DNA of 64,000 bases from a virus, in IMG/VR virus record IMGVR_UViG_3300023202_000135, positions 26,693 to 90,692 of that record; one strand, 5' to 3'. Numbering within the stretch: the stretch's first letter is position 1; each line of letters begins with the position of its first letter. Under the pieces are notes generated by a model. That model saw nothing but the letters and a program-made list of their open reading frames with translations. It did no database searches and was not told the DNA's origin. Of the stretch, positions 25,596 through 36,870 are shown one piece after another. A program made the position numbers and the translations under genes.

Positions 25596-26321
25596 TCAGC
25601 GGTTCTTCCGGCGCGTGGTGCGCTTCGCCGCCTTCTTCCGCGTAGTGGTCTTCTTCGCTGCGGTCTTCTTCGATGCGGTCTTCTTCTCGGCGGGCGTGCG
25701 CTTGGCGGGCAGTTTCACCCGGTCCTTGAGGGAGGTGGCGGTCTCTTCCTCCTCTTCGCCTTCTCCTTCTTCCTCCTCGCCCTCGTGGTCGGATGCGTCA
25801 GCGGGATCGCCCTCGTCCTCGGCGTCTCCAGCTTCGTCATCGTCGGTGCCAAGGGCAGCGTCGGCTTCGGACTCGTCTCCGTCGCCCGACCCGTCAGCGT
25901 TGAAAGGATCGGTCGCAGTAGCAGCGCGGGTCTGGTTCGCCACAGGACGGCGCTTACCGCCGCCATCGCCAGCGCCGCCGACAGGATCGCCGCCGCCGGC
26001 CTCGGAACCCCGGCTGCCACCAGCGCCGCTGTCCGTGCTCTCCTCCTGGGCAGGTGAGAGAGCAGCAGCTTGCGCCATTGGTTCCGGGGGAGCGCGAAAC
26101 AAGGGCCCGCAGTCCTCGTTGTGGTAGCGCTCGTAGAACGCGCCCTCAACGACGTAGGTCGCGTCGCCGCGCTTGGGGGATTCGCTGTAGGGGCGGACGT
26201 CGATCCGTCGCCCCTCGGGGTTCTGGATCGTGACAGTGAGCCGGCCGCGGTTGATGAAGCGCGGTTGCGGTTGCGGCGCTTCTGCGGCTTCGGCCTCTGG
26301 TTGCGTGGTGGTCTCGGTCAT
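25596..26321 (-). CDS. Hypothetical protein with acidic linker and Lys/Arg-rich tail
   Basis: 241 aa; RBS GGAG; D/E-rich middle and KKTASKKTAAKKTTTRKKAAKR end. Confidence 0.75.
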   Translation of the reverse strand: MTETTTQPEAEAAEAPQPQPRFINRGRLTVTIQNPEGRRIDVRPYSESPKRGDATYVVEGAFYERYHNEDCGPLFRAPPEPMAQAAALSPAQEESTDSGAGGSRGSEAGGGDPVGGAGDGGGKRRPVANQTRAATATDPFNADGSGDGDESEADAALGTDDDEAGDAEDEGDPADASDHEGEEEEGEGEEEEETATSLKDRVKLPAKRTPAEKKTASKKTAAKKTTTRKKAAKRTTRRKNR

Positions 26322-26426
26322 GGCTTCTCCCTTGTGAATCGGCGCTGCCGATGGTTCAGGCCTTATGGTCGCGGGGAAGCGGCGACCTGCAAGCAGTAGT
26401 AGTGGGGTGACGCTTTGTCACTCCAT

Positions 26427-26454
26427 GAAGAAGCCCGGCGACGGGGCCGGGCTC
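26427..26454 (-). terminator. Putative intrinsic terminator
   Basis: AGCCCGGC-loop-GCCGGGCT hairpin followed by TCTTC on the minus strand. Confidence 0.5.
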
Positions 26455-26482
26455 TAAGTCAAGTCTCGATTTGAGGGGCGGC

Positions 26483-26956
26483 CTATGCGGGGGGCCACGC
26501 GCTCCGCGCACCGGGCCACGCGATCATCACGTCGAAGGCATTGCCGAGCGGGGCATCGGGGTGCTTCTGTTCGCTCCATAGCTCCTGGTACGCGTCTTCG
26601 GTCGGGACGCCGTGCGGGAAGTAATCCGTGGCGTAATCGAGCAACGTCGCCGGGCGTCCGAGCCGCGCCGTCATCACGTGGAGAGTGTAGCACCACATGA
26701 CAACCTTGGCCGGGTTGTTGCACAAGCTGGCGCAGAACGTCAGCAGGCTGCGGTCGTAGGCGACGTTGGTGGCCTCGAACCGTTTGACGGCGATGCCTAT
26801 AGCGAACTCACCTCGCACCTCGCGCCACAAGTCGTCAGACATGGTCGGGTGCACGAGCGGATTGAGGCCGACGAACAGCTCGGCCTCCTCCGCGGTCATT
26901 TCACGCACCGGGCAGCCGATCAGACCGGCGCCCAGGGGTAGTTCTTCGTCGCTCAT
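26483..26956 (-). CDS. Hypothetical protein
   Basis: Start MSDEELP, ATGA overlap with the upstream gene. Confidence 0.65.
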   Translation of the reverse strand: MSDEELPLGAGLIGCPVREMTAEEAELFVGLNPLVHPTMSDDLWREVRGEFAIGIAVKRFEATNVAYDRSLLTFCASLCNNPAKVVMWCYTLHVMTARLGRPATLLDYATDYFPHGVPTEDAYQELWSEQKHPDAPLGNAFDVMIAWPGARSAWPPA

Positions 26957-27441
26957 GTGTCGAGCTTCCTCTGCTTCGATCCGGTCACTTTGGCGTCGTC
27001 CGCGTCGACCTTGAGGCCTTCGCGCCAGCCGACCGGGATGGTTGCTTCTGCGTCCTTGAGTACCCACAGGTGGAACTGGTTCGCGGTATCGACAACCCGG
27101 CTCTCCGCGGGGTACAGCTCGAACGCCTCGTGCTCGGGACCTACGATCTCGTTCTTGATGCGCTGGAGGTCGCGCCAGTCATGGATCGGTTCCTTGTCGA
27201 GGCGCTTGACCGACAGGTGGACGAAGTCGCCGCGGTCTCGGTCGACGTTCACTTGGTATCGGCTGTTCTTGTAAACCTCGGACCGGTTCAGCGCAATAGC
27301 TTCGGACTGCCACTCCTCGTCAAGGGCCTCGGGACGCAAGTGCCCCATGCGGCGCTTCAACTCCGCACCGGTGGTGCGTACGTACGCGCGCTCGAACGGA
27401 GTCCAAGGCGGCGGGCGCGCAGCCCCCTTGCGCTTGCTCAT
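26953..27441 (-). CDS. Conserved phage hypothetical protein
   Basis: HLSVKR.D..PIHDWRDLQRIKNEIVGPE.EA.E.YP..SR.VD.AN..HLW, a recurrent phage family motif. Confidence 0.75.
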   Translation of the reverse strand: MSKRKGAARPPPWTPFERAYVRTTGAELKRRMGHLRPEALDEEWQSEAIALNRSEVYKNSRYQVNVDRDRGDFVHLSVKRLDKEPIHDWRDLQRIKNEIVGPEHEAFELYPAESRVVDTANQFHLWVLKDAEATIPVGWREGLKVDADDAKVTGSKQRKLDT

Positions 27442-27758
27442 CGAACCGCGCGCCTGTGGTCTTCGAGGACGCGCAAGCACTCCGGGCACGAGGCCTTCAT
27501 GACGCACGTCGGGCTGTCGGTCCGGACCAACGCGGACGGAAGGCCACACAGGGTCATCGCGCCCTGCTCCTCGCGGTCGGTGATGCACACGTCGCCGCAA
27601 AGCTGCTCGACGACGTCGCGCCGTCGCGCGTTGAACTCCGCTGCGATGTCGTCGCGCTCCTCCGCGGGGTAGCTGCCGGCGAAGGCATGGACGTCGGTGG
27701 CGTTGATGAGGCGGTCGACCAGCTCGATGGCCTCGCGATTGGATCGGCGTCGGGACAT
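27438..27758 (-). CDS. Hypothetical protein with Cys-rich C terminus
   Basis: Start MSRRRSN; TLCG...SCPEC suggests a Zn site. Confidence 0.6.
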   Translation of the reverse strand: MSRRRSNREAIELVDRLINATDVHAFAGSYPAEERDDIAAEFNARRRDVVEQLCGDVCITDREEQGAMTLCGLPSALVRTDSPTCVMKASCPECLRVLEDHRRAVR

Positions 27759-27759
27759 G

Positions 27760-28794
27760 TCAAACCTCCACGAACAGGCGCGGGTGAAACTCCCACAGAC
27801 GGTGGTCCCGGTCGAGGGCGTTGATGACCGCGATCTCCCAAGCGCCCGGAAGCGCCTCCGGCCCTTGGTGCGCACCGAGGAGGCCGCCGACGATTGCGGC
27901 GTTGGTGTCCGAGTCCCCGCCGCGATTCGTGATGTCGATGATCGCGTCGCGGTAGGGGGTGCCGTGGTACAGATGCCAGAAGGCGAGGCGGAAGGCCACG
28001 CGGACGAAGCCTTGCGCGCCGTACATGTCGAGCGCGATGCCGTGATCCTCGCCCATCACGAGGGCATCATCCTGCTCCGCCATGAGGAGGTCCTCGCTCA
28101 GCGCGCCGGCCGCCTCGTTGACTTCATCATCCGAGTACCGACCGGTGACGCGCAGCCGGGTCGCGGCCATCGTGATCGCGGCCTCGGCCGCCGCGGTGAC
28201 CTTGGTGACGGGCTCCTCGCGCAGCGCGTGGGCGATGGCGGTGGCGTAGGCCGCGCAAGCGCTCACGCACTTGGGGTCCGCGTGCGTGAGCGCTGCATCG
28301 GTGATGGCAAGCTGGATCCGCTCGTGATCGCGCTCCTCGTCCTGCCATCGCCATGCGCCGATGGGGGCGCACCTCATGAGCGAGCCATTGCCCGCCGCGC
28401 GCCGGCCACCCTGATCCCAGGAGATGTACCCTTGGTCGACGTTGGCGCTCGCCAGGGCGGCACTGGTCTGCCCGCCGATGTCGAAGGTGACATTGCACCA
28501 AGCGCGGTACAGCTCGTGGAGGACCTCGGGGTCGATGCCGTCTTCCAGGCACAGGTGGACGTGCAGGACGGTCGCCATCATGGTGTCGTCCGTGACCTGC
28601 CCCTTGGCCACGTTGAACGGGCCGCCGCCGACCAGCTCGGTCTGCGGGCCGTCCAAGAGCGTGTCCTTGGTCAGTGGGGGGAGGTCGCGGGGTCGGGCGA
28701 ACTCGTTGGTGGTTCCGAAGGCGTCGCCGCAGGCGAGGCCCAAGAGGGCGCCGTTACGGCGCTTTTTGATGGGGATAGCAGGGGTCTGCGTCAT
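27760..28794 (-). CDS. ADP-ribosylglycohydrolase (ARH/DraG family)
   Basis: GALLGLACGDAFG, GQVTDDT, AGNGSLMRCAP, LTH, GGDSDTNAAIVGGLLGA family motifs. Confidence 0.95.
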   Translation of the reverse strand: MTQTPAIPIKKRRNGALLGLACGDAFGTTNEFARPRDLPPLTKDTLLDGPQTELVGGGPFNVAKGQVTDDTMMATVLHVHLCLEDGIDPEVLHELYRAWCNVTFDIGGQTSAALASANVDQGYISWDQGGRRAAGNGSLMRCAPIGAWRWQDEERDHERIQLAITDAALTHADPKCVSACAAYATAIAHALREEPVTKVTAAAEAAITMAATRLRVTGRYSDDEVNEAAGALSEDLLMAEQDDALVMGEDHGIALDMYGAQGFVRVAFRLAFWHLYHGTPYRDAIIDITNRGGDSDTNAAIVGGLLGAHQGPEALPGAWEIAVINALDRDHRLWEFHPRLFVEV

Positions 28795-28841
28795 GTTGGT
28801 CTCCGTGTCTTGAGCCGGCGGCTCTCCGTTTCTGACACTTT

Positions 28842-28898
28842 CAATATGCCGCGTGACGCGGGGGTGTCAACTTGATTTCCCGGTGGCGGGGCATATTG
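28842..28898. promoter_or_regulatory. Back-to-back divergent sigma70-like promoters
   Basis: Minus strand TTGACA...GGCATATTG toward ARH; plus strand TTGATT...GGCATATTG toward the ORF at 28954. Confidence 0.6.
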
Positions 28899-28953
28899 CG
28901 GGCATCACCTCCAGCAACAGAGGCGCCACGCGCCGAGACCCAAGGAGCCAGAC

Positions 28954-29583
28954 ATGGCCAAGTTCCTCACCCGAGAAGAGGCGATCGAGCGGGCACAGCG
29001 CGCCGTTGCCGAGATCAAAGCCGCGCTCAAGAAGCGCGACGACGCGGCCCGGCCGCGCGTGACCTGGGCCCCGGAGAAGCGCGCCGCGAGTGAAAGCGTC
29101 GGAGGGGCTTGGTTCCGCTGGACGACTGCAAGGGGCGAGCGCGCCGAATGGGTCCTGGTGTTCAAGGGGCGCGAGACGCCGGTCTCCTGCGACCGCGATG
29201 CGTGGTACTGCACCAACGTGCAGGCGAGCCTGCACTCGTCCCTGCCGTTCCTGCGCGCGACCGCGAACGTAACGTGGACCGTAACGCGAAAGAACTTCGC
29301 CACCGACTTCGCGGCCAAGATGGTCGAGGCCTGGGACGCGGAGCTGGAGCAGGCGCGCGAGCAGGAAGACCGATCCGAGAAGGCGCTCGATCGCTGGCGT
29401 GAGAAGGTGCTGGGCCTCAAAGGTGACGACGTCTACGGCTGCGACCCGCAAGGTATCGACCTTGAGCGCGACAGCACCTTCGGTTCCATCACGCTGACCG
29501 TCCGATACCATTCCCGTCCCGTTCTGGAAAAGGCCATCGCTGCATTGCGCAGCGTACTCCCTCCCAAGCACGAAGATGATTAA
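28954..29583 (+). CDS. Hypothetical protein
   Basis: 209 aa, AAGGAG RBS, GC3 bias; one of only two plausible plus-strand genes. Confidence 0.75.
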   Translation: MAKFLTREEAIERAQRAVAEIKAALKKRDDAARPRVTWAPEKRAASESVGGAWFRWTTARGERAEWVLVFKGRETPVSCDRDAWYCTNVQASLHSSLPFLRATANVTWTVTRKNFATDFAAKMVEAWDAELEQAREQEDRSEKALDRWREKVLGLKGDDVYGCDPQGIDLERDSTFGSITLTVRYHSRPVLEKAIAALRSVLPPKHEDD

Positions 29584-29599
29584 CAAGGAGATACTCACC

Positions 29600-30088
29600 A
29601 TGCACCCACTCCTACAGATGATCGGCGGTTCCCCGCCAAAGTCGCCACTCGACGTGCTGCCCGTCCCGACGAACCGCATCGAAGACCTGTACACCGACAT
29701 GCAGGCGATGGAAGAGGACGGCAGCCACCGGGCTCAGTGGGACTTCTGGCGAAGCGTCCACCGCCATTTCCCTGCCCTGCACGGCAAGGAGTTCCGCCTC
29801 AACGTCGACCACATCACGCGGCCTGTGTGGGAAGTCACAGGGGACAAGAAGCCTCCGGTCGTCGGCCGCAAGAACCGGCACGTGATCGAAGTCGAGGCCG
29901 AACACATCTACCCGATCCTGGAGATGCTCGACCGCGTCGACTCGGTGCTGGGGCGGTATCGTCTGTGGGCCTTCGTGGAGAAGGAATACCCGGCCACACG
30001 CGACCGTCTCCCCTGGCACATCCATCACGACATGGGTCGAGGCATGTGGCTCGTCGGCCGGCACGCGGACGAGGAAGAGGACGACTGA
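29600..30088 (+). CDS. Hypothetical protein with internal duplication
   Basis: AAGGAG RBS before MHPLL; halves resemble each other (QWDFWRSVHRHFPA vs RYRLWAFVEKEYPA). Confidence 0.75.
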   Translation: MHPLLQMIGGSPPKSPLDVLPVPTNRIEDLYTDMQAMEEDGSHRAQWDFWRSVHRHFPALHGKEFRLNVDHITRPVWEVTGDKKPPVVGRKNRHVIEVEAEHIYPILEMLDRVDSVLGRYRLWAFVEKEYPATRDRLPWHIHHDMGRGMWLVGRHADEEEDD

Positions 30089-30115
30089 TTCCGTAGGTCG
30101 GATTCAACGGAGCGC

Positions 30116-30154
30116 CAAAAGACAGAGCCCCGGGGAACGCCCCCGGGGCTCTTT
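30116..30154. terminator. Bidirectional intrinsic terminator
   Basis: AGAGCCCCGGGG-AACGC-CCCCGGGGCTCT hairpin with T-tracts on both strands between convergent units. Confidence 0.8.
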
Positions 30155-30222
30155 GCGCATGAATCGGCTGAAAGGTGCGCGGTCGCTGAACGGCACAACC
30201 GTAGTGGCCCTGTGACGAAGTG

Positions 30223-30396
30223 TCAACGACGAATATGGCTGACCACTTTCGCCAGCGCCTCGGACGTCGCGAGCACAGCTTCGGCCCAGGAGCGGTAGGT
30301 GCCGCTCCAGATATACAGGCTGCCGTCTCCTAGACGCTCTGCGATAATTGCCACCCAACAGAGCGTGTCGACCATGTATATGCGGACCTCGTACAC
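30223..30396 (-). CDS. Possible small hypothetical protein
   Basis: GTG-started YEVRIYMVDTLCWVAII...HIRR*; lower GC; start uncertain. Confidence 0.4.
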   Translation of the reverse strand: MYEVRIYMVDTLCWVAIIAERLGDGSLYIWSGTYRSWAEAVLATSEALAKVVSHIRR

Positions 30397-30455
30397 GAGC
30401 CGATTCTGGCACCACGGCAAATGCTGCAACCGCGTCAATATGGCGTAGTGCCGAG

Positions 30456-30526
30456 TTGCCTCCCCTGGACTCGAACCAGAACTAGCAGAGCCAAAATCTG
30501 CTGTGCTACCATTACACCAGGAGGCA
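30456..30526 (-). tRNA. tRNA-Gln(TTG)
   Basis: Acceptor TGCCTCC/GGAGGCA, anticodon arm GCAGA-TTTTGGC-TCTGC, T-loop GGTTCGAGTCC. Confidence 0.9.
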
Positions 30527-30645
30527 TTGCGTCCGCGCCCCCTTATCCCTGTACTTCGGGGCTTGCGATTGGAGGGCCGGCGTTCCAACCCTCGCGCGCG
30601 CGTAGGGGCGCCCGGGCGCGCGAGAGGAGCAGGGACCGGCCAAAG

Positions 30646-30687
30646 CTGCCAAGGGAGGGGTCGAACCTCCGACCAGCGGATTAACAG
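30646..30687 (-). pseudogene. 3' half of an interrupted tRNA-Asn(GTT)
   Basis: CTGTTAA-TCCGC-TGGTC-GGAGG-TTCGACC-CCTCC-CTTGGCA; its acceptor strand pairs with TGCCAAG at 31181-31187. Confidence 0.8.
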
Positions 30688-30690
30688 AAG

Positions 30691-30763
30691 CAGCCGGTGT
30701 GGGACTCGAACCCACTTCTCGCGGTTAACAGCCGCGCGTAAAGACCTGCTATACTATCCGGCT
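30691..30763 (-). tRNA. tRNA-Asn(GTT), nested in the interrupted tRNA-Asn
   Basis: AGCCGGA/ACCGGCT acceptor (one mismatch), CGCGG-CTGTTAA-CCGCG, GTGGG-TTCGAGT-CCCAC. Confidence 0.85.
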
Positions 30764-31125
30764 TGACGTGCGTTGTACCTGCCTGCGCATTTGCGTCCGC
30801 AGAACAGCAAGCCTGACCGACGCTGCGCCGCGAATCGAACCCTTGCGCGTGTCCGTTGGAATGCCTTACCGCATTCCGGGCATTCGAGATCAACCGCAGG
30901 ATGCGCATGGCGCGAACCATGATCCGCTCGCTTCACGAGTTCCAAGTTACCCGGTCGATTGTCCCGCTTCTTCCCGTTCATGTGATGGATCAGCTCGCCG
31001 GGCCCGGGGACCACTCCGTGCGTCTCCCAGTAGACGAGGTGATGCTCATAGCAGTACAGGCCTCGGTACCGCTTTCCGGGGTACCCTTCCGGGGCTTTCA
31101 CCAGCTCGTACGGCCCGTTCCTCAT
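30754..31125 (-). CDS. HNH homing endonuclease with C-terminal Zn ribbon
   Basis: YEHHLV...IHHMNGKKRDNRPGNLELV...H; CPECGK...FCGRKC. Confidence 0.9.
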   Translation of the reverse strand: MRNGPYELVKAPEGYPGKRYRGLYCYEHHLVYWETHGVVPGPGELIHHMNGKKRDNRPGNLELVKRADHGSRHAHPAVDLECPECGKAFQRTRARVRFAAQRRSGLLFCGRKCAGRYNARQAG

Positions 31126-31131
31126 TCGGGT

Positions 31132-31159
31132 AGTGTAGAACCGGAGTTAACACCGGCAA
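31132..31159 (-). promoter_or_regulatory. Promoter for leaderless HNH transcript
   Basis: TTGCCG-16 nt-TACACT, 6 nt upstream of the ATG; the spacer holds an imperfect palindrome CCGGtGTTAACtCCGG. Confidence 0.55.
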
Positions 31160-31161
31160 GC

Positions 31162-31187
31162 CCGCTCTACCGCTGAGCTACTTGGCA
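31162..31187 (-). pseudogene. 5' half of the interrupted tRNA-Asn
   Basis: TGCCAAG-TA-GCTC-AGCGGTA-GAGC: acceptor strand plus a complete D-arm, after which the tRNA pattern breaks. Confidence 0.8.
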
Positions 31188-31190
31188 ATA

Positions 31191-31276
31191 TGGCGGAAGG
31201 TCAAGGAATCGAACCCTCATGCTTTCACATGGCCCGGTTTTCGAGACCGGTTGGACGCCGTTGTCCGCGACCCTCC
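31191..31276 (-). tRNA. tRNA-Ser(CGA)
   Basis: CCGGT-CTCGAAA-ACCGG, long variable arm CATG-TGAAAG-CATG, T-loop TTCGATT, encoded CCA. Confidence 0.9.
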
Positions 31277-31283
31277 GTAGTAT

Positions 31284-31356
31284 TGCTGCGAGGAGGAATC
31301 GAACCCCCGACCCGTCGATTACGAAACGACCGCTCTGCCGGCTGAGCTACCGCAGC
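31284..31356 (-). tRNA. tRNA-Thr(CGT)
   Basis: GCTGCGG/TCGCAGC acceptor, GTCGT-TTCGTAA-TCGAC, GGTTCGATTCC. Confidence 0.9.
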
Positions 31357-31362
31357 ATGAAA

Positions 31363-31490
31363 TGATCGTCCCTGCCCGTCAGGGTAAAGCTCCGTCGCGG
31401 CCTCGAACCGCGTCCTTCCGTTCCGGGTGGGGATCGAACCCATGGGGGAGGTCGACGCCTCCCGAAGCCCATCGAACGAAGCAACGATCG
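31363..31490 (-). ncRNA. Putative tRNA-like structured RNA with two T-arms
   Basis: TGGG-TTCGATC-CCCA and CGCGG-TTCGAGG-CCGCG; GCTTCGT/ACGGAGC 7-bp stem; ends GATCGT/ACGATC pair. Confidence 0.5.
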
Positions 31491-31493
31491 TAG

Positions 31494-31570
31494 TGGAGCG
31501 CGCAGTCGGATTTGAACCGACGTCTCCTGCTTGGAAGGCAGGGGCCCTAGGCCAACTGGACGATGCGCGC
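31494..31570 (-). tRNA. tRNA-Gly(TCC)
   Basis: GCGCGCA/TGCGCGC acceptor, CCTGC-CTTCCAA-GCAGG, GTTCAAATC, CCA end. Confidence 0.92.
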
Positions 31571-31573
31571 GCG

Positions 31574-31649
31574 TGGTACTCGTGGGCGGACTCGAACCAC
31601 CAACCTTCCGCGTATCAGACGGACGCTCTGACCATTGAGCTACACGAGA
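31574..31649 (-). tRNA. tRNA-Ile(GAT)
   Basis: TCCGT-CTGATAC-GCGGA, GGTTCGAGTCC, CCA end; U1-U72 mismatch. Confidence 0.88.
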
Positions 31650-31677
31650 TCGTGACTTGCCACTGTGATAGGTTGTC

Positions 31678-31713
31678 AAAGAAAAAGCCCCGAGCTTTGT
31701 AGGCCCGGGGCTT
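31678..31713 (-). terminator. Intrinsic terminator (attenuator) upstream of the tRNA operon
   Basis: AAGCCCCGGGC-CTACAAA-GCTCGGGGCTT followed by TTTCTTT. Confidence 0.85.
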
Positions 31714-31738
31714 GGTTGGTCCTTGAAGCGAATGCGCG

Positions 31739-31816
31739 TTAGACCATGCAGCCCCGGTCGGTCCATCCCTGGATCGAATTACCGCCGGTGATCTGCGTGG
31801 GTTGCGTGAAGCGCAT
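31739..31816 (-). CDS. Putative attenuator leader peptide MRFTQPTQITGGNSIQGWTDRGCMV
   Basis: 25 codons plus TAA, leaderless start behind a promoter; 3' codons are complementary to the terminator 5' arm. Confidence 0.7.
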   Translation of the reverse strand: MRFTQPTQITGGNSIQGWTDRGCMV

Positions 31817-31822
31817 GGTCGA

Positions 31823-31850
31823 ATCGTAGTGGTGCGGGGGGCGCAGTCAA
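31823..31850 (-). promoter_or_regulatory. Sigma70-like promoter of the leader/tRNA operon
   Basis: TTGACT-16 nt-TACGAT, 6 nt before the leader ATG. Confidence 0.7.
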
Positions 31851-31875
31851 CGAAACTGTCTCGCGGGCTGAGGTG

Positions 31876-32466
31876 TCAGTCGCCCGGGAGGGCGTCGTAC
31901 AGCGCAGAGATTTGCGCCGGGGTGAGGGTCAGGTAATCCGTGCCCTCCGGCAACAGGCCGCATTCGATTGCGGCTTCGCACACGCGCTGATCGTGAGCCA
32001 GGAATAGCGGCATTGGATCCGGCATGCCCCGACGCTCCCACTCCTGGCGTATCTTTCTTCGGTACTCCGCGTCGTCCTGTTCCTCGGCCGCGTGCGCATC
32101 GGCGGCCGTGTTGAAGGCCTGCACCACTTTGACCTCGGTGGCCTCGAAAACCGGAATGGTCAGGTCCTTGGCCAGCTCATCGTCGTACTCGTGTACCTCT
32201 GTCATCACGTACGTGGCCTGAACCATGAGGTAATCAGCGAACTCATCGGCATCCTCTCGAAGTTCGATGTCATCGGCGTCGTACACGTCCATCGCGTAGT
32301 CCCACCACAGGTCCAGCAAGTCGTGCAGGTCGTCCCACGCCACTGACCCCGGGTCGGGCGGCCATGCAGTTCCAGCAATCGGGTCGAGGGTATCCAATCC
32401 CCCTGAGAAAATAATCCTTCCGACGAGGGTAATCGGTGCCTTGGTGGGTCGGTTGTGCGCGATCAT
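31876..32466 (-). CDS. Hypothetical acidic protein
   Basis: 196 aa, AAGGAG RBS, upstream TTGCAC...AATACT promoter-like site. Confidence 0.75.
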   Translation of the reverse strand: MIAHNRPTKAPITLVGRIIFSGGLDTLDPIAGTAWPPDPGSVAWDDLHDLLDLWWDYAMDVYDADDIELREDADEFADYLMVQATYVMTEVHEYDDELAKDLTIPVFEATEVKVVQAFNTAADAHAAEEQDDAEYRRKIRQEWERRGMPDPMPLFLAHDQRVCEAAIECGLLPEGTDYLTLTPAQISALYDALPGD

Positions 32467-32651
32467 GGCGACTCCTTTCAGCCGGTGTGAGTATTCGAGC
32501 GTGACGCGCGCGGTGCAAGTCTTTTCTCGCGTTACTCGGTATTATCGAGTATTCGCTTGAACGGGCCGTGTTCGTCGTCGGGGCGAACACCTGTGCGTAG
32601 TCGCTGTGTCATTGCGTCACCTCATGAAGAAGGGGGCGAGCCAAAGCCCGG

Positions 32652-33323
32652 TCACTTCACCGCGCGGTACGCGATGCGCTTGCCGATCCGGTTGATGGAT
32701 GCCCCGCTGAGTCCGTACTCCTCGCCCAGTTCCCGCTGGTTCTCGCCGGCATCGTACCGAGCGCGGATATCGCGGACCTGCGCGTCGGTCAAGGCTCCGC
32801 GACGCGATCCGCGACCTACCTTGGTAATCGGCCCCCCAACCGCAGGCCACGTGACTCCCGTGACAAGCTGCCCGATGGTGGGCTGGCTTACCCCGAACTC
32901 GACGGCAAGGTCGGACTGCTTGGATCCGGCCGCGTACCTCTTTCTAATGTCGACGATATTCTCGTCGGACAGCTTTCGCCCGTTGCCGAGCACAGCACGC
33001 GAGTGGAGATTGTTCGTCGTTGGCGTAGTCCACTCCAAGTTTGCCGGTCGGTTGTTCTGTCGGTCACCGTCGATGTGGTTGACCGGGGAGTCGGCGTGAG
33101 ATGGTGGGCCGTTGAATGCGCGGCAGACGAGGCGGTGAACCAGCACCTGCTTCTGCTCGTTGCGGTGGCTCAACGTCACCCGCAGATAACCCATCGTGTG
33201 GTTCTTGAGGGCGAGCACACCGCCGCCGGATCCCCGGCTTTTCGACACGCGCCGCACGTTGCCGTGGTCGCTGACCTCGTAGACGCCTTCATAGCCGTCG
33301 ACGGGCTTCCAGGATTCGGACAT
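32652..33323 (-). CDS. NUMOD4-HNH homing endonuclease with C-terminal HTH repeats
   Basis: ESWKPVDGYEGVYEVSDHGNVR, VHRLV..AF, VNHIDGDRQNNRPANLEW.T...N; two LT...V.DIR.RY.AG HTH repeats. Confidence 0.92.
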   Translation of the reverse strand: MSESWKPVDGYEGVYEVSDHGNVRRVSKSRGSGGGVLALKNHTMGYLRVTLSHRNEQKQVLVHRLVCRAFNGPPSHADSPVNHIDGDRQNNRPANLEWTTPTTNNLHSRAVLGNGRKLSDENIVDIRKRYAAGSKQSDLAVEFGVSQPTIGQLVTGVTWPAVGGPITKVGRGSRRGALTDAQVRDIRARYDAGENQRELGEEYGLSGASINRIGKRIAYRAVK

Positions 33324-33327
33324 GAAA

Positions 33328-33357
33328 TGACCCCCGCAGGTTGAGTGCGGGGGTCAT
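33328..33357 (-). terminator. Hairpin after the capsid gene (terminator, abutting the HNH start)
   Basis: ATGACCCCCGCA-loop-TGCGGGGGTCAT followed by TTC then ATG. Confidence 0.65.
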
Positions 33358-33422
33358 CGTGAAGCACGAACGTAAATGGTCAATGCCCAATTACGTAAGA
33401 ACTATCTCTTCCTTGAACTTGG

Positions 33423-34928
33423 TCAAGGCGACGGGGTGAGATTGATCCTTACGTAAAAATTGGGGTTGACCATCTTCGTCGCGTAGCGGCTGGCGAGGCC
33501 CTTCTGATGCAGGAAGTCGGCCGTGACCAGGGTCTCGGTCGTGTACATCATCTGGTAGGGCGACCAGACGAGGCCCGCTTGGTAGAAGTCGTTGCCCTTG
33601 TAGCCCATGAGGACGTTGCCGTCCGGGCTGGCATTCGGCTCCTTGTCCAGGTGGATGTCCTTGTACACGCGGAACTTGTTGAGCAGCGTTCCGATGTAGT
33701 GGAGACCCTGGACGTTCGCGGGGCGCGGCGCGGCCTGGAACATGCCGGCGGGGAGGGACTCGATGAGGGTCGAGGCCTGCTCGTCGACGATGAGCCAGTT
33801 GCCATACCCCTTCTGCGTCGCCGCCCAAATCTTGTTGGAGGCGTTGTTGAGGGGGATGGCGAAGTCCCGGTAGTGGTCGGTGATGTTGAAGCCGGGGCTC
33901 GCACCGGGGGTCTTCGCGAACGTGTCGACGACCGGCGCCACCTGCCACATCTCGTGGATGAGCTGGCGGGCGATCTCGAAGTTCATCTGCTCGGCCGCAC
34001 CGGTGATGAGGTTGGGCTCCAGCGAGACGCCGAACTCCTGGAGGATGTCGTGGACGGCCTCCATGCTGTAGTTCAGCTTCATGGCCCGACGCTCGGTCTC
34101 CACGGTGGAGGTCGTGATCTGCACGTCCACCTGCGGGGTGAGCTGCGACCCCTCGCTGTCCCAGCGGTAGCGGGCGATGATCGGCTGGGAGTTGTCGACG
34201 GCACCCGAGAAGGTGACGCTGACCGCACCGGTCTTGTAGTCGATGCTGCCGGTGACGCCGCTCAGGAACCCGCCGTTGCCGTTGTCGTAGACGGTCTCGG
34301 CGGTGCCGGAGACGATCGCCGTGACGGACACGGTGCCCGGAGCCACGCCGCCGCCGTCGTGGTAGACGAGCGTTCCGGCGTAGGTCGCGGCGGCGCCGTC
34401 ACCCTGGGCGATGACCTCGGCGTCGATCACTTCGTTGGAGAAGTTGAAGCCGCTGTCCTGCTTGCCGGTGTTGGCGTCGAAGAGGCGCATGCCGGGGGTG
34501 TAGCTGCCCTTGGCCTGATCTCCGCCGACGATCCAGTTCCAGTAGACGACGGTCGCGATCTTGCGGGTCGTCACCTGGACCGAAACGAGGTCGGTGATCG
34601 GGTTGGTCGGGAAGCCGGCCCGGATGATGGGGAAGATGTAGTCGGAGAAGCCGCCGACCAGCGCGGAGCGGGTGGCCTCGTCGAGAGTGACGAGCCCGTT
34701 CTCGTTGAGCTTGCGGCGGGACTTCGACGCCATCCAGCGCTTGGCATTCTCCATCACCAGGGCGGTGGAGGCGCGCATGTAGTCGTCGTCGATTCGGAGG
34801 TCACCGTAGTCAGACTCCGTGAAATACTCGGCCCAGCCGCCTTCGGATTCGGGGAGTTCCGACAGACGCAGACCGGCTTCCAGGACGCCCTCGAAGATGC
34901 CTCCCTGTTGCAGAGCAAGTTCGCTCAT
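33423..34928 (-). CDS. gp23: Major capsid protein (gp23-like)
   Basis: FPIIRAGFP...DLVSVQ, R.MK..YSMEA..D, EIARQLI, GNWLIV, YIGTL, LMGYKG, WSPY, GLASRYA motifs. Confidence 0.95.
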   Translation of the reverse strand: MSELALQQGGIFEGVLEAGLRLSELPESEGGWAEYFTESDYGDLRIDDDYMRASTALVMENAKRWMASKSRRKLNENGLVTLDEATRSALVGGFSDYIFPIIRAGFPTNPITDLVSVQVTTRKIATVVYWNWIVGGDQAKGSYTPGMRLFDANTGKQDSGFNFSNEVIDAEVIAQGDGAAATYAGTLVYHDGGGVAPGTVSVTAIVSGTAETVYDNGNGGFLSGVTGSIDYKTGAVSVTFSGAVDNSQPIIARYRWDSEGSQLTPQVDVQITTSTVETERRAMKLNYSMEAVHDILQEFGVSLEPNLITGAAEQMNFEIARQLIHEMWQVAPVVDTFAKTPGASPGFNITDHYRDFAIPLNNASNKIWAATQKGYGNWLIVDEQASTLIESLPAGMFQAAPRPANVQGLHYIGTLLNKFRVYKDIHLDKEPNASPDGNVLMGYKGNDFYQAGLVWSPYQMMYTTETLVTADFLHQKGLASRYATKMVNPNFYVRINLTPSP

Positions 34929-34986: not shown

Positions 34987-36870
34987 TCAGCGGCCGATCT
35001 TGGACACCGCCGCAGCCGCTTGCTTCACGCCGGGGCTGACTTGGTGCCCGTTCGCGGGTCGGTCGGGGACATCGGAGGTCGATTCGACCATGAGCCCTCG
35101 ACGTAGCGCGGAGCGTTGCGGAACAGGCGAGTCTTCTGGCTCATCCTCCCCTTCGGCCAGGACCGGCTCGGCCGTCTTGTCCTTGGGGGCCTGCCCGACG
35201 ATCATGGGCGCGAGGCCCTCGACCATCTCCGCAAGCTGTTCGAGCGTAGTGGCCTCCTCCAGAACCTTGCGGTAGCGCGCCAAGGCGGGCTGGGCCGCAA
35301 GGACCAGTTCGAGGGCCTCGTCCACCGGTTCTCCGGTTTCGGGGGTCTCCACGATGGGCGCAGGCGCCCGGGTCCGCTCGATCAGTTGGTTGGCAAGTTC
35401 TCGGTGGCCGCTCGACTCGCGTCCCGCCGCTTCTGCGGCCTCAGCCAGTCGCCATGCCTCGTCGCGGTTCGCTTCTGCTTCCGCAACCTTCTGCCGGAGT
35501 TCGCCCGCGCCTTCACGCAGGCGACGATTCTCAGATGTTAGCTGCTTGAGTCGCGATTGCAACTCCTCGACTACGGCCTTGAAGCCGGCTTCGTGTTTGG
35601 CTGTCGCAGCCTCCGTCACCGCGCCGATCGACTCGTCGATCGAGGCCCCGACCGTGATCCCATCCAGCATCGGGCCGATGGACTCGGCCACCTTGCCGAG
35701 GAGCCAGTCGCTCAGGGCGGCCTTGTCGCTATCAGAGAGGTCTTCCCGGGCCCGTGCCTGGGACCACTTCCGGTGGAGCTGGGCCGTCAGCTCGATGGGG
35801 TTGCCGGAGACCTCCTGGAGGGCCTCCAGGAGGGGCAGGAAAGGCTCCTGGAGGCCCTCCTCGGACACCTCGGCGCCCTGGGCCGCCTCGCCAGATAGGC
35901 CCTCAGCGGCGCTCTCTGCGAACTTGAGCATGATGGGCTGGCCGTTGGCCGGGCAGGCCGCGAAGTGGGTCAGGTCGCCGCAAGGCTGGTCCAGGGCCTC
36001 GAACACGAGGTCGACGTGGTCCTGCCCGCAGCGCGCGCAAGTCTTGACCGTAGTGGTGTGGGTGTCGTCGCCCTCCTTGAGCGACTTCTTGCGCTGCACG
36101 GCCGGGGCGTCGGCGCCGGCACCTTTGGACAGGTTGGCGTAGGCGCCTGGGGTGGACGGGCGCATGACCGCGTCCCAGCACTCCAGGATGTAGGTCTCGG
36201 GGCTGACCTTGCCGCTCTCGTCGACCTCGCCGTTGCCGCGAGTCGACACGCCCCAGCGCACGCCCTTGCGGGTGAGTTCCTGGAGGATGAGGCCAGACGG
36301 GGTATCGAGCAGCTCGTGACGAGCCCACACCACGCCGTCCTCCTGGAGCTTGGCCTGGGTAGTGACGAGGGCGACCTCCTTGCCGTCCGTGCGGCCGTCC
36401 TTCGGGTGCTCGAAATGGCCGGTCATCCCGCGCTCGTTGATGCGCTCCAGGATCGGTGACTTTTTGTCACCGAACAGCTTCTCCCAAATCTCCTTCGGGT
36501 AGTAGCGCTTGTTCGCGTTGCGGACGCCGGACCGCTGGCCGGGGCCTTCGACGAACCACCGGCCGTCTTTGGGTAGGGGTACGGTCTCGCCGTTGGGGAG
36601 CTTGCGCTCGACAAGTTCGAGGTCGTTGAAGTTCTCGACCAGCGTCAGGTTGTCGTTCTGCTGGAAGCTCTCGCAGAGCGAGTTGCCCTGCTTGGTGGCC
36701 CGCCCTTCCGCGAACCAGACCTTGTCCTTCTGTGTGACGTACGAGACCTCGGGGGTGAACACGAGGTTGAGGTCGCCGCCCGATTCGAGGAGGCCCTGGT
36801 AGCTGTCCCAATCCTCGATCCAGCCTTCGCAAAGGAGCCGGCGATTAGTAGCTGGGGTACGGGGTGGCAT
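34987..36870 (-). CDS. gp21: Prohead protease (gp21-like) fused to a coiled-coil scaffold region
   Basis: NANKRYYP, GHFEHP, LLDTPSG.IL..L, GVSTRGNG, WDAVMRPSTPGAY; coiled-coil C-terminal half. Confidence 0.9.
   Translation of the reverse strand: MPPRTPATNRRLLCEGWIEDWDSYQGLLESGGDLNLVFTPEVSYVTQKDKVWFAEGRATKQGNSLCESFQQNDNLTLVENFNDLELVERKLPNGETVPLPKDGRWFVEGPGQRSGVRNANKRYYPKEIWEKLFGDKKSPILERINERGMTGHFEHPKDGRTDGKEVALVTTQAKLQEDGVVWARHELLDTPSGLILQELTRKGVRWGVSTRGNGEVDESGKVSPETYILECWDAVMRPSTPGAYANLSKGAGADAPAVQRKKSLKEGDDTHTTTVKTCARCGQDHVDLVFEALDQPCGDLTHFAACPANGQPIMLKFAESAAEGLSGEAAQGAEVSEEGLQEPFLPLLEALQEVSGNPIELTAQLHRKWSQARAREDLSDSDKAALSDWLLGKVAESIGPMLDGITVGASIDESIGAVTEAATAKHEAGFKAVVEELQSRLKQLTSENRRLREGAGELRQKVAEAEANRDEAWRLAEAAEAAGRESSGHRELANQLIERTRAPAPIVETPETGEPVDEALELVLAAQPALARYRKVLEEATTLEQLAEMVEGLAPMIVGQAPKDKTAEPVLAEGEDEPEDSPVPQRSALRRGLMVESTSDVPDRPANGHQVSPGVKQAAAAVSKIGR

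What the first reader, a model, noticed from the sequence alone, without database searches (positions are those of the whole stretch)
30456..31850. Leader-peptide attenuator whose codons match all six tRNAs of the phage tRNA operon
Seen: promoter TTGACT-16-TACGAT, then a leaderless ORF (31816-31739) reading ATG CGC TTC ACG CAA CCC ACG CAG ATC ACC GGC GGT AAT TCG ATC CAG GGA TGG ACC GAC CGG GGC TGC ATG GTC TAA, then an intrinsic terminator, then the tRNA genes. The ORF's 3' end (CCGGGGCT-gca-TGGTC) is complementary to GACCA-acca-AGCCCCGG, which includes the terminator's 5' arm, so the two structures are mutually exclusive. Codons 4-17, upstream of this antiterminator strand, include a cognate codon for each downstream tRNA: ACG x2 (Thr-CGT), CAA (Gln-TTG), ATC x2 (Ile-GAT), AAT (Asn-GTT), TCG (Ser-CGA), GGA (Gly-TCC). 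CAA, AAT and GGA are disfavoured in this GC3-rich genome. Established: this is the logic of trp/his/thr-type ribosome-mediated attenuation, and host anticodon nucleases (PrrC, VapC, PARIS AriB) deplete tRNAs during infection. Inference: a ribosome stalled for lack of any of these tRNAs frees the antiterminator and switches on the phage's replacement tRNAs, i.e. a tRNA-depletion-sensing counter-defence. I know of no description of this for a phage tRNA cluster.
Basis: partly seen in the sequence, partly recalled or inferred. Interest (0 to 1): 0.93.

Follow-up and report, generated by a model that had tools for sequence, protein, structure and literature searches.

The report
Codon-matched attenuator before phage tRNA genes
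A GC-rich uncultured phage places a promoter, a 25-codon test gene written in codons its six tRNAs read, and a switchable transcription stop ahead of those tRNA genes, so it probably makes them when ribosomes read those codons slowly.

Summary

Each part beats chance.
- All six tRNAs have a readable codon in 0.5-1.2% of null ORFs.
- The leader is the top outlier of 314 small ORFs in the contig.
- The antiterminator pairing has p about 0.007.
- Of 9 promoter-like sites in 181 kb of strand, only this one has an ATG at +1.
- In masked folds, a ribosome at codons 2-17 leaves the antiterminator free. At codon 21 to the stop it blocks it.

Direct conservation cannot be tested. The tRNA island is an insertion absent from 19 related phage loci, and nothing similar turned up in three collections. 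No RNA data exist.

My own survey of 46 other phage tRNA arrays found the same design in unrelated phages. L085 has four units, each leader matching its own tRNA set, and L092 has one.

The scan has noted this architecture before on other DNA (at least 7 genomes). Four literature searches found no published account.

Verdict: probably a real leader-peptide attenuator (about 0.6), a new variant of a known kind. The anti-nuclease counter-defence purpose is untested.

The parts
31823..31850 (-). Sigma-70-type promoter-like site: TTGACT (31850-31845), 16-nt spacer, TACGAT (31828-31823)
   Evidence: 9 of 12 matches. It is one of only 9 such sites on both strands of the 90.7-kb contig. The architecture resembles other intergenic TTGAC sites in this phage whose -10-like hexamers are TACGGT, TATGAT or CACGAT.
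31739..31816 (-). Leader ORF of 25 codons plus TAA. The ATG lies at the predicted transcription start (leaderless). Codons 4-17 are the sensing stretch.
   Evidence: It is the only promoter-like site in the contig with an ATG 5-8 nt after the -10. It has 10 of 24 codons readable by the six tRNAs, and 13 of 14 residues in codons 4-17 are Thr, Gln, Ile, Gly, Asn or Ser. On both counts it is the top of 314 small ORFs.
31744..31800 (-). Hairpin within the ORF (regions 1:2, leader nt 17-73). It could act as a pause site or anti-antiterminator.
   Evidence: -30.3 kcal/mol, z -2.39, 6 of 200 shuffles fold as well. It is part of the full-length MFE structure.
31741..31757 (-). Antiterminator 5' strand (region 2): CCGGGGCU-gca-UGGUCU, codons 20-25 and the first base of the stop codon
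   Evidence: CCGGGGCT occurs only twice on this strand of the contig.
31705..31722 (-). Antiterminator 3' strand (region 3): GGACCA-acca-AGCCCCGG. It overlaps the terminator's 5' arm.
   Evidence: -30 kcal/mol; duplex -28.1 kcal/mol, reached by 0.7% of 5000 random genome segments and 0.74% of 5000 dinucleotide shuffles.
31676..31713 (-). Intrinsic terminator: 11-bp stem, 7-nt loop, then a T-rich tail
31574..31649 (-). tRNA-Ile (GAT)
   Evidence: 65.3 bits.
31494..31570 (-). tRNA-Gly (TCC)
31283..31357 (-). tRNA-Thr (CGT)
31191..31276 (-). tRNA-Ser (CGA)
   Evidence: Rfam scores it only as a weak tRNA-Sec-like match, 33.7 bits, below that family's gathering score.
30690..30763 (-). tRNA-Asn (GTT). 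It lies just after an HNH endonuclease gene (31125-30754) inside the operon.
30455..30526 (-). tRNA-Gln (TTG), the last tRNA
30124..30152 (-). Terminator-like hairpin that would end the tRNA operon. It faces convergent plus-strand genes.

Best explanation
This is a ribosome-mediated (leader-peptide) transcription attenuator that gates a six-gene phage tRNA operon.

How it would work:
1. Host RNA polymerase starts at the A of the ATG, giving a leaderless mRNA. A ribosome translates the 25-codon leader while the polymerase moves on.
2. If the ribosome runs quickly to codons 21-25 or the stop, it covers region 2. The terminator (31713-31685) then forms and transcription ends before tRNA-Ile.
3. 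If the ribosome is held up at any of codons 4-17, region 2 stays free. These codons include at least one readable by each of the six tRNAs. Region 2 pairs with region 3, the terminator cannot form, and the polymerase reads into the tRNA genes.

The phage would therefore make these tRNAs on demand, when decoding of their codons is slow.

Shown:
- the sequence elements;
- the alternative folds and their geometry;
- that each is statistically unusual;
- that the same design occurs in unrelated phages.

Inferred: promoter activity, leaderless translation, kinetic coupling, and the physiological trigger.
For: Anatomy.

Folds:
- The full leader folds as a 1:2 hairpin plus terminator: -57.7 kcal/mol, z -3.52, 0 of 200 shuffles as good.
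- The antiterminator forms when the terminator's 3' arm is absent, at -30 kcal/mol.
- Its duplex is reached by 0.7% of nulls. It is the strongest upstream complementarity of 15 terminator-like hairpins in the contig.

Ribosome-mask folds:
- A-site at codons 2-16 allows 14 antiterminator pairs, and codon 17 allows 12.
- Codons 18-20 allow 9, 6 and 6.
- Codon 21 to the stop allows 0.

Codon match:
- 6 of 6 tRNAs served in 1.2%, 0.53% and 1 of 183 of three nulls.
- At least 10 readable codons in 14: 0.0064% of 141,400 windows.
- The leader is the single best of 314 small ORFs. The next best has 8.

Promoter: 1 of 9 promoter-like sites in the contig has an ATG 5-8 nt downstream, and it is this one.

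Other routes to the tRNAs:
- No usable promoter lies between the terminator and tRNA-Ile, so Ile and Gly must be reached by readthrough.
- The major capsid gene upstream has its own terminator at 33356.

The class exists elsewhere, by my own survey:
- L092 has a 12-of-12 promoter, a leader whose first 14 residues after Met are all amino acids of its 7 tRNAs, an antiterminator (p 0.003), a terminator, then the array.
- L085 has four units. Their leaders are rich in F/E/A; in D, K (AAG) and G; in N/P/T/Y; and in V/T/N/P. Each matches its own downstream tRNAs (p 6.8e-9, 6.8e-6, 1.4e-4, 0.012).
- Codon-matched ORFs at p<0.001 lie upstream of 3 of 47 arrays, against 2 of 893 control windows.

Leaderless leader peptides are predicted in Deinococcus deserti (PMC4007540, passages read).
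Against: - No relative carries this island, so nothing shows the leader is conserved.
- The ORF has no Shine-Dalgarno sequence, while 43 of 66 crude gene calls have one, including nearly all clear ATG genes. No other gene here looks leaderless.
- The AUG sits in a small 4-bp 5' hairpin.
- Three tRNAs (Asn, Ser, Gly) are sampled by a single codon. No codon is in tandem, unlike the trp, his or leu leaders.
- Four of codons 4-17 (CCC, ACC, GGC, GGT) are not read by these tRNAs under standard wobble.
- In the untranslated nascent RNA the antiterminator, not the 1:2 hairpin, is the MFE. So translation dependence rests on kinetics.
- One spurious hairpin in the contig shows nearly as strong upstream pairing, -27.5 kcal/mol.
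- A weak promoter-like TTCAAA-18-TACGAT after tRNA-Gly could feed the last four tRNAs independently. It scores 8 of 12, below the scan threshold (seen).
- The host is unknown.
- The finding was picked from a very large scan, so selection inflates coincidences.
Confidence: 0.6

Rival explanations
1. Coincidence. The terminator simply ends or insulates transcription from the HNH and ORF196 genes upstream. The small ORF is not translated. The tRNAs are made by leaky readthrough or from promoters that the consensus scan does not recognise.
For: - No conservation could be shown.
- The ORF lacks a ribosome-binding site in a phage that uses them.
- The promoter match is only 9 of 12.
- Promoter-like sites next to terminators recur here, at 33383 and 30226. 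That suggests such pairs can arise without attenuation.
- The finding was selected from a very large scan.
Against: Several roughly independent coincidences would have to coincide at one spot directly upstream of the only tRNA cluster:
- the codon match, 0.5-1.2%;
- the antiterminator, 0.7%;
- an ATG at +1 of one of only 9 promoter-like sites;
- sensing codons confined to the permissive window.
The same design also recurs in unrelated phages, with leader content tracking the tRNA set.
Confidence: 0.22
2. An RNA-only element. The roughly 135-nt terminated transcript is a small RNA in its own right. Or the alternative folds serve processing or stability of the tRNA precursor, with no role for translation.
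For: - The transcript is strongly structured (z -3.52).
- Liberated attenuator RNAs can act in trans (rnTrpL of Sinorhizobium, PMC6614838, search listing and abstract start only).
- A second promoter-like site followed after about 46 nt by a terminator lies at 30226-30124.
Against: It does not explain why the ORF is the most codon-matched of 314 small ORFs. Nor does it explain why the matched codons stop where the antiterminator strand begins. No Rfam family matches at E<=1 apart from tRNAs and two weak chance hits.
Confidence: 0.08
3. The ORF encodes a functional micro-protein, and its position before the tRNAs is incidental.
For: It is an open frame with an ATG at a plausible transcript start.
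Against: A degenerate search for the peptide in viral contigs found nothing. The peptide's last third is dictated by the RNA stem. Its composition mirrors the tRNA set.
Confidence: 0.03

Closest known systems
Multivalent leader-peptide attenuators of enterobacterial amino-acid operons (thrL sensing Thr and Ile; ilvL sensing Ile, Val and Leu; also trpL, hisL, leuL, pheL). The family names and details are recalled. The general trp mechanism is as quoted in PMC4007540.
   Same: Promoter, short ORF enriched in regulatory codons, a 1:2 hairpin, a 2:3 antiterminator, a 3:4 intrinsic terminator, and several specificities sensed by one leader.
   Different: - It controls tRNA genes, not biosynthetic enzymes.
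- It samples six specificities with 1-3 scattered codons each, instead of tandem runs.
- It has a leaderless start instead of a Shine-Dalgarno sequence.
- It is in a phage.
- It has no sequence homology to these families: no Rfam leader family matched.
Leaderless leader peptides predicted in Deinococcus deserti (PMC4007540, passages read)
   Same: The transcription start coincides with the AUG of a short ORF rich in the relevant residues, upstream of translation-related genes (aminoacyl-tRNA synthetases) or biosynthetic genes.
   Different: Those precede protein-coding genes in a bacterium where about half of mRNAs are leaderless. Here the target is a tRNA operon in a phage whose other genes use Shine-Dalgarno sites.
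Codon-matched leader units before tRNA arrays in other uncultured phages (L085, L092; my). The scan's earlier AI notes describe the same thing on other genomes.
   Same: The same order of parts and the same logic. The first 14-17 codons sample the tRNAs and the ORF tail forms the antiterminator (L092).
   Different: Those phages are AT-rich, their leaders have a 5' UTR with an AAGG-like site, and they are unrelated in sequence. The window's unit is GC-rich and leaderless, and it sits in a mobile-looking island.
Anabaena sp. PCC 7120 trn operon, a silent tRNA array induced under translational stress (PMC8421152, passages read; PMC10272220, term search only)
   Same: An accessory tRNA array is kept off and switched on when translation is impaired.
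   Different: Control is at the promoter, through direct repeats bound by a repressor (TrcR). The terms leader peptide, attenuat- and terminator are absent from both texts.
T-box riboswitches
   Same: They sense tRNA status and decide between a terminator and an antiterminator.
   Different: T-boxes bind uncharged tRNA directly and need no translation. No T-box match was found here, and the leader is too short.
Phage tRNAs as counter-defence against tRNA-cleaving systems (PARIS, PMC11464382; retron effectors, PMC11555353; anticodon-loop variants, PMC10264068). Search listings and abstract starts only.
   Same: Phage-borne tRNAs that could replace host tRNAs lost during infection.
   Different: I did not read those papers beyond the listing for how the phage tRNAs are regulated. 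Nothing in this window links these six tRNAs to a nuclease.

Membership tests
Ribosome-mediated leader-peptide transcription attenuators (mechanistic class) | A promoter that gives a short leader transcript ahead of the regulated genes | tested here: inconclusive
   A consensus-level site is present. It is rare in this contig, 9 sites in 181 kb of strand. No transcript data: no RNA run is listed.
Ribosome-mediated leader-peptide transcription attenuators (mechanistic class) | A short ORF in the leader that is translated | tested here: inconclusive
   The ORF is present. It has no Shine-Dalgarno sequence. Its ATG is at the predicted +1. Translation cannot be tested with these tools.
Ribosome-mediated leader-peptide transcription attenuators (mechanistic class) | Regulatory codons matching the product controlled, beyond chance | tested here: met
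   6 of 6 tRNAs served, p 0.005-0.012, and the leader is the top of 314 small ORFs. The codons are scattered, not in tandem.
Ribosome-mediated leader-peptide transcription attenuators (mechanistic class) | An intrinsic terminator between the ORF and the regulated genes | tested here: met
Ribosome-mediated leader-peptide transcription attenuators (mechanistic class) | A mutually exclusive antiterminator whose upstream strand is covered by a ribosome finishing the ORF but left free by one stalled at the regulatory codons | tested here: met
Ribosome-mediated leader-peptide transcription attenuators (mechanistic class) | Conservation or co-variation in relatives | tested here: inconclusive
   No relative holds this island. 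Co-variation was seen only in unrelated analogues.
Ribosome-mediated leader-peptide transcription attenuators (mechanistic class) | Readthrough rises when the cognate charged tRNA is scarce | not testable with these tools
   This needs a reporter, Term-seq or Ribo-seq.
Rfam leader families (Trp, His, Thr, Leu and other curated leaders) and T-box | A match to the covariance model | tested here: not met
   with permissive filters and E up to 1, gave only tRNA-clan matches and two weak Plastid-ycf2 hits on the opposite strand of tRNAs. So this works like these families but is not a homologue.
Phage tRNA counter-defence against anticodon nucleases | The tRNAs replace species cleaved by a host nuclease, or resist cleavage | not tested
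   The host and its defences are unknown. I did not analyse the anticodon loops.

The most novel reading that the evidence does not exclude
The leader is a six-channel sensor of tRNA depletion. When a host anticodon nuclease or another tRNA-targeting defence removes any one of the Ile, Gly, Thr, Ser, Asn or Gln tRNAs, ribosomes stall in the leader. The terminator is then bypassed and the phage switches on its own replacement set. That would make it an inducible counter-defence carried on a mobile, homing-endonuclease-bearing island. More broadly, codon-matched attenuators would be a general and so far undescribed way in which phages regulate tRNA genes.
Probability: 0.2. Interest if true: 0.95.

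Novelty: new variant of a known kind. Interest (0 to 1): 0.8.

Why it matters
Why phages carry tRNA genes, and when they express them, is an old open question. A leader that reads the very codons its tRNAs decode would mean the phage measures decoding speed directly and makes tRNAs on demand.

That gives a simple, testable regulatory logic: recode the leader and watch readthrough. It also offers a natural reporter for tRNA depletion, and a way to predict which tRNAs matter to a phage from sequence alone.

Four literature searches found no description of leader-peptide attenuation of tRNA genes. My survey suggests it recurs in unrelated phages.

Tried and rejected
Relatives of the island:
- ORF196 just upstream is an orphan (only its own cluster).
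- 19 loci related through the major capsid protein hold 0 tRNAs within 10 kb.
- 5 whole related records hold none, 3 of them at least 98% complete.
- DNA patterns from the leader and terminator, a degenerate back-translation of the peptide, and a tRNA-Ile word found nothing. I searched viral contigs, metagenome contigs and genome contigs. These scans find only exact pattern matches, and the window's own record may be left out.
- blastn against cultured phages hit only generic tRNA similarity.
- The scan's look-alike index gave nothing.

Expression:
- No RNA holder is listed.
- The four DNA runs, all from one study, carry identical sequence. The only listed differences are at 31326 and 31309, inside tRNA-Thr and from other organisms' contigs. 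So there was no microdiversity to read.

Host: the capsid protein has only distant cultured relatives, 32% identity or less, so the host stays unknown.

Downstream promoter: the TTGACA at 31679 has CACGAT only at a 19-nt spacing, ending on the first base of tRNA-Ile. I rejected it as the source of tRNA-Ile.

CTACGAT motif: it is strand-biased, 17 against 2, but most copies are inside genes. I dropped it as a promoter signal.

Repeats in 26000-33600 showed nothing involving the leader.

A second survey pattern aimed at GC-rich terminators returned 8 loci, each with a single tRNA, which was uninformative.

The swap matrix of leaders against tRNA sets is confounded by set size and overlap. I do not lean on it.

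Antiterminator duplex tests for the L085 units were not significant with my simple region definition (p 0.24 and 0.099), although their partial folds show the pairing.

Supplementary files of papers were not opened. Those of PMC4007540 list the predicted leaderless leader peptides and could bear on the comparison.
Full report
WHAT THE WINDOW IS. The window is bases 26693-90692 of a 90.7-kb IMG/VR virus record that CheckV estimates at 49% complete. It is 61-68% G+C. Nearly all genes lie on the minus strand: 62 of 66 crude calls. Around the finding lie a head maturation protease (34987-36870) and a major head protein (33423-34928). Two HNH endonucleases follow (32652-33323 and 30754-31125), then an ADP-ribosylglycohydrolase (27760-28794), all.

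THE OBSERVATION.
- Promoter-like site: TTGACT (31850-31845), 16 nt, TACGAT (31828-31823).
- ATG at 31816, six bases after the -10 hexamer.
- A 25-codon ORF ending in TAA at 31741-31739.
- A terminator-like hairpin at 31713-31685 (11 pairs, 8 of them G-C) followed by a T-rich tail.
- Six tRNA genes: Ile-GAT, Gly-TCC, Thr-CGT, Ser-CGA, Asn-GTT and Gln-TTG.

These are the only tRNAs in the whole contig. Rfam finds nothing else in 29500-33000 at E up to 1, apart from two weak chance hits opposite tRNAs.

IS IT MORE THAN CHANCE? I derived codon usage from 66 crude gene calls.

Codon match. I defined readable codons by standard wobble: ACG; CAA/CAG; ATC/ATT; AAC/AAT; TCG; GGA/GGG. The leader serves all six tRNAs. 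That happens in:
- 1.2% of 200,000 draws of 24 codons from the phage's codon usage;
- 0.53% of 121,307 stop-free 24-codon windows in all six frames;
- 1 of 183 small ATG ORFs of 18-34 codons, the leader itself;
- 3 of 314 small ORFs when GTG and TTG starts are allowed.

By strict Watson-Crick pairing the leader serves 5 of 6, because AAT is a wobble codon for GTT. At least 5 occurs in 2.1% of draws.

Density of the match:
- 10 of codons 4-17 are readable, which 0.0064% of 141,400 windows reach.
- 13 of those 14 residues are one of the six amino acids, which 0.013% reach.
- Among 314 small ORFs the leader is the single best on both counts. The next best are 8 and 12.

Antiterminator. The duplex is -28.1 kcal/mol. 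That is reached by 0.7% of 5000 random 78-nt segments of the contig and by 0.74% of 5000 dinucleotide shuffles of the ORF. It is the strongest upstream complementarity of 15 terminator-like hairpins. One spurious hairpin inside a gene comes close at -27.5.

Promoter. Promoter-like sites by the tool's criteria are rare: 9 on both strands of the contig. Only this one has an ATG 5-8 nt after its -10.

These tests are roughly independent, and they coincide directly upstream of the only tRNA cluster.

DOES THE GEOMETRY WORK?
- The full leader folds into a hairpin within the ORF (nt 17-73) plus the terminator: -57.7 kcal/mol, z -3.52.
- The ORF hairpin alone is -30.3 kcal/mol, z -2.39.
- Without the terminator's 3' arm, region 2 (31757-31741) pairs with region 3 (31722-31705), which includes the terminator's 5' arm.

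I then masked a 28-nt ribosome footprint at each A-site codon. I folded the RNA that exists before the terminator's 3' arm is made.
- Stalls at codons 2-16 leave all 14 antiterminator pairs.
- Codon 17 (GGA) leaves 12.
- Codons 18-20 leave 9, 6 and 6.
- Codon 21 through the stop leaves none.

So all the matched codons lie in the permissive window, and a ribosome that finishes the ORF blocks the antiterminator. This is the classical design.

Two caveats apply. At equilibrium the terminator always wins in the full transcript, so the decision must be kinetic, as in known attenuators. And in the untranslated nascent RNA the antiterminator, not the 1:2 hairpin, is the MFE. Whether untranslated transcripts terminate therefore depends on folding order.

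CAN THE tRNAs BE MADE ANOTHER WAY? The TTGACA over the U-tract (31679-31674) has no -10 at 16-18 nt. CACGAT lies at 19 nt and ends on the first base of tRNA-Ile, so a start there would fall inside the tRNA. The capsid gene has its own terminator at 33356. tRNA-Ile and tRNA-Gly therefore seem to depend on readthrough of the 31713 terminator. A weak TTCAAA-18-TACGAT after tRNA-Gly might feed the last four tRNAs. It is below the scan threshold and I saw it.

WEAK POINTS.
- The ORF has no Shine-Dalgarno sequence, whereas 43 of 66 crude gene calls have one, including nearly all clear ATG genes. Translation must therefore be leaderless, which is unproven here.
- Leaderless leader peptides have been predicted in Deinococcus deserti: 14 of them, upstream of tRNA synthetase or biosynthesis genes (PMC4007540, passages read).
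- Three tRNAs are sampled by one codon only.
- The host is unknown.

CONSERVATION.
- In 19 loci related through the capsid protein (53-68% identity), the next structural genes follow the capsid gene within about 700 nt.
- Here about 7 kb is inserted between 26.4 and 33.4 kb.
- Those 19 loci have no tRNA, and neither do 5 whole related records.
- The island is thus a recent acquisition. I found no relative of it anywhere.
- Public runs hold only identical DNA from one study, and no RNA.

Direct co-variation for this leader therefore cannot be tested.

THE SAME DESIGN ELSEWHERE. The scan's earlier AI notes report codon-matched leaders before tRNA arrays in at least seven other phage genomes. These are leads, not evidence, so I ran my own test.

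A pattern of a T-run 15-45 nt before a common tRNA D-arm returned 109 viral loci. I left out arrays of fewer than 3 tRNAs or with less than 220 nt upstream. 48 of the 109 loci held a single tRNA. That left 46 arrays plus the window.
- Six arrays had a terminator-like hairpin within 90 nt upstream.
- Five of those six had a small ORF ending at it.
- Binomial p for readable codons: 6.8e-9 and 6.8e-6 (two units of L085), 6.8e-5 (L092), 0.0058 (L063) and 0.049 (L061). The window scores 0.0021.
- Of 9325 other small ORFs in the same loci, 1.5% reach p<0.01 and 0.34% reach p<0.001.

In a cleaner test with no terminator requirement, I took the first-ATG ORFs of 10-45 codons within 300 nt upstream.
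- p<0.01 is reached upstream of 5 of 47 arrays, against 12 of 893 control windows.
- p<0.001 is reached upstream of 3 of 47, against 2 of 893.
- The window ranks fourth of 47.

Details of the other units:
- L092 has a 12-of-12 promoter, a leader whose first 14 residues after Met are all amino acids of its seven tRNAs, and a terminator before the array. Its antiterminator has p 0.003.
- L085 comes from a 424-kb contig and has four units. Two have near-identical promoter regions.
- Their leaders are rich in F/E/A, in D/K(AAG)/G, in N/P/T/Y and in V/T/N/P. Each matches the tRNAs that follow it.

It raised my odds for the window from about 0.2 to about 0.6.

WHAT IT IS LIKE. It works like the multivalent leader-peptide attenuators of amino-acid operons. 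It is not a homologue of any curated leader family or T-box.

The nearest published case of a conditionally expressed accessory tRNA array is the Anabaena trn operon. That operon is controlled by repeats at the promoter (PMC8421152) and by the repressor TrcR (PMC10272220, title and abstract start). Neither text holds the words leader peptide, attenuat- or terminator.

Four full-text searches for leader-peptide attenuation of tRNA genes or phage tRNAs found nothing relevant. The library lacks most subscription journals.

VERDICT.
- The attenuator mechanism is the best explanation (about 0.6), with chance the main rival (about 0.22).
- The idea that the trigger is tRNA cleavage by host defence is untested (about 0.2).
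- It is a new variant of a known kind. The scan has seen it before on other DNA, and this is a GC-rich, leaderless example of it.

Noticed in passing
window 31190-30640 (minus strand): A tRNA-like 5' piece (31187-about 31145) and a 3' piece (about 30690-30645) have complementary acceptor ends. Each carries TGTTAA, an Asn GTT anticodon loop. They flank an HNH endonuclease gene (31125-30754) and an intact tRNA-Asn. It looks like a tRNA-Asn split by a homing cassette that brings its own replacement. Earlier first-reader notes say the same.
   Followed up: partly
window 31490-31363 (minus strand): The 136-nt gap between tRNA-Gly and tRNA-Thr holds two T-arm-like motifs (GGGTTCGATCCCC and GCGGTTCGAGGCCGC). 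No tRNA is called there.
   Followed up: no
window 30226-30124 (minus strand): A second promoter-like site, TTGACA-17-TACGGT, is followed after about 46 nt by a strong hairpin terminator. It could give a very short transcript, or mark the end of the tRNA operon facing the convergent genes 28954-30088.
   Followed up: partly
window 33383-33324 (minus strand): TTGACC-16-CACGAT lies directly after the capsid gene and overlaps the 5' arm of its terminator (33356). A transcript starting there would lack the full hairpin and run into the HNH gene.
   Followed up: no
window 26400-33400: An accessory island of about 7 kb lies between the capsid gene and the next conserved structural gene. It holds two HNH genes, ORF196, the tRNA operon, two plus-strand genes and an ADP-ribosylglycohydrolase. 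It is absent from 19 related loci. A 17-nt imperfect direct repeat lies at 26417-26433 and 32616-32632.
   Followed up: partly
whole contig: CTACGAT occurs 17 times on the coding strand and 2 on the other, often as CCACTACGAT. Copies include the leader's -10 region (31829) and the site just after tRNA-Gly (31493). Most copies are inside genes.
   Followed up: partly
window 31649-31574: tRNA-Ile (GAT) appears to have a U1:U72 mismatch at the top of the acceptor stem, by my reading with the ends given. It is nevertheless the best-scoring tRNA (65.3 bits).
   Followed up: no
L085 1498-1560, 4000-4065, 9083-9190, 11948-12049: One 424-kb phage contig has four small ORFs ahead of tRNA blocks. Their amino-acid content tracks the tRNAs that follow. 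Two of the units share a near-identical promoter region.
   Followed up: partly
L092 5431-6217: A perfect TTGACA-16-TATAAT promoter comes first. Next is a leader whose first 14 residues after Met are all amino acids of the seven tRNAs downstream. An antiterminator and terminator follow, then the array.
   Followed up: partly
window 39621-48398 (minus strand): A 2925-residue ORF has no PHROG match. Partial relatives, 28-35% identity over parts, occur in 14 of the 19 related loci.
   Followed up: no
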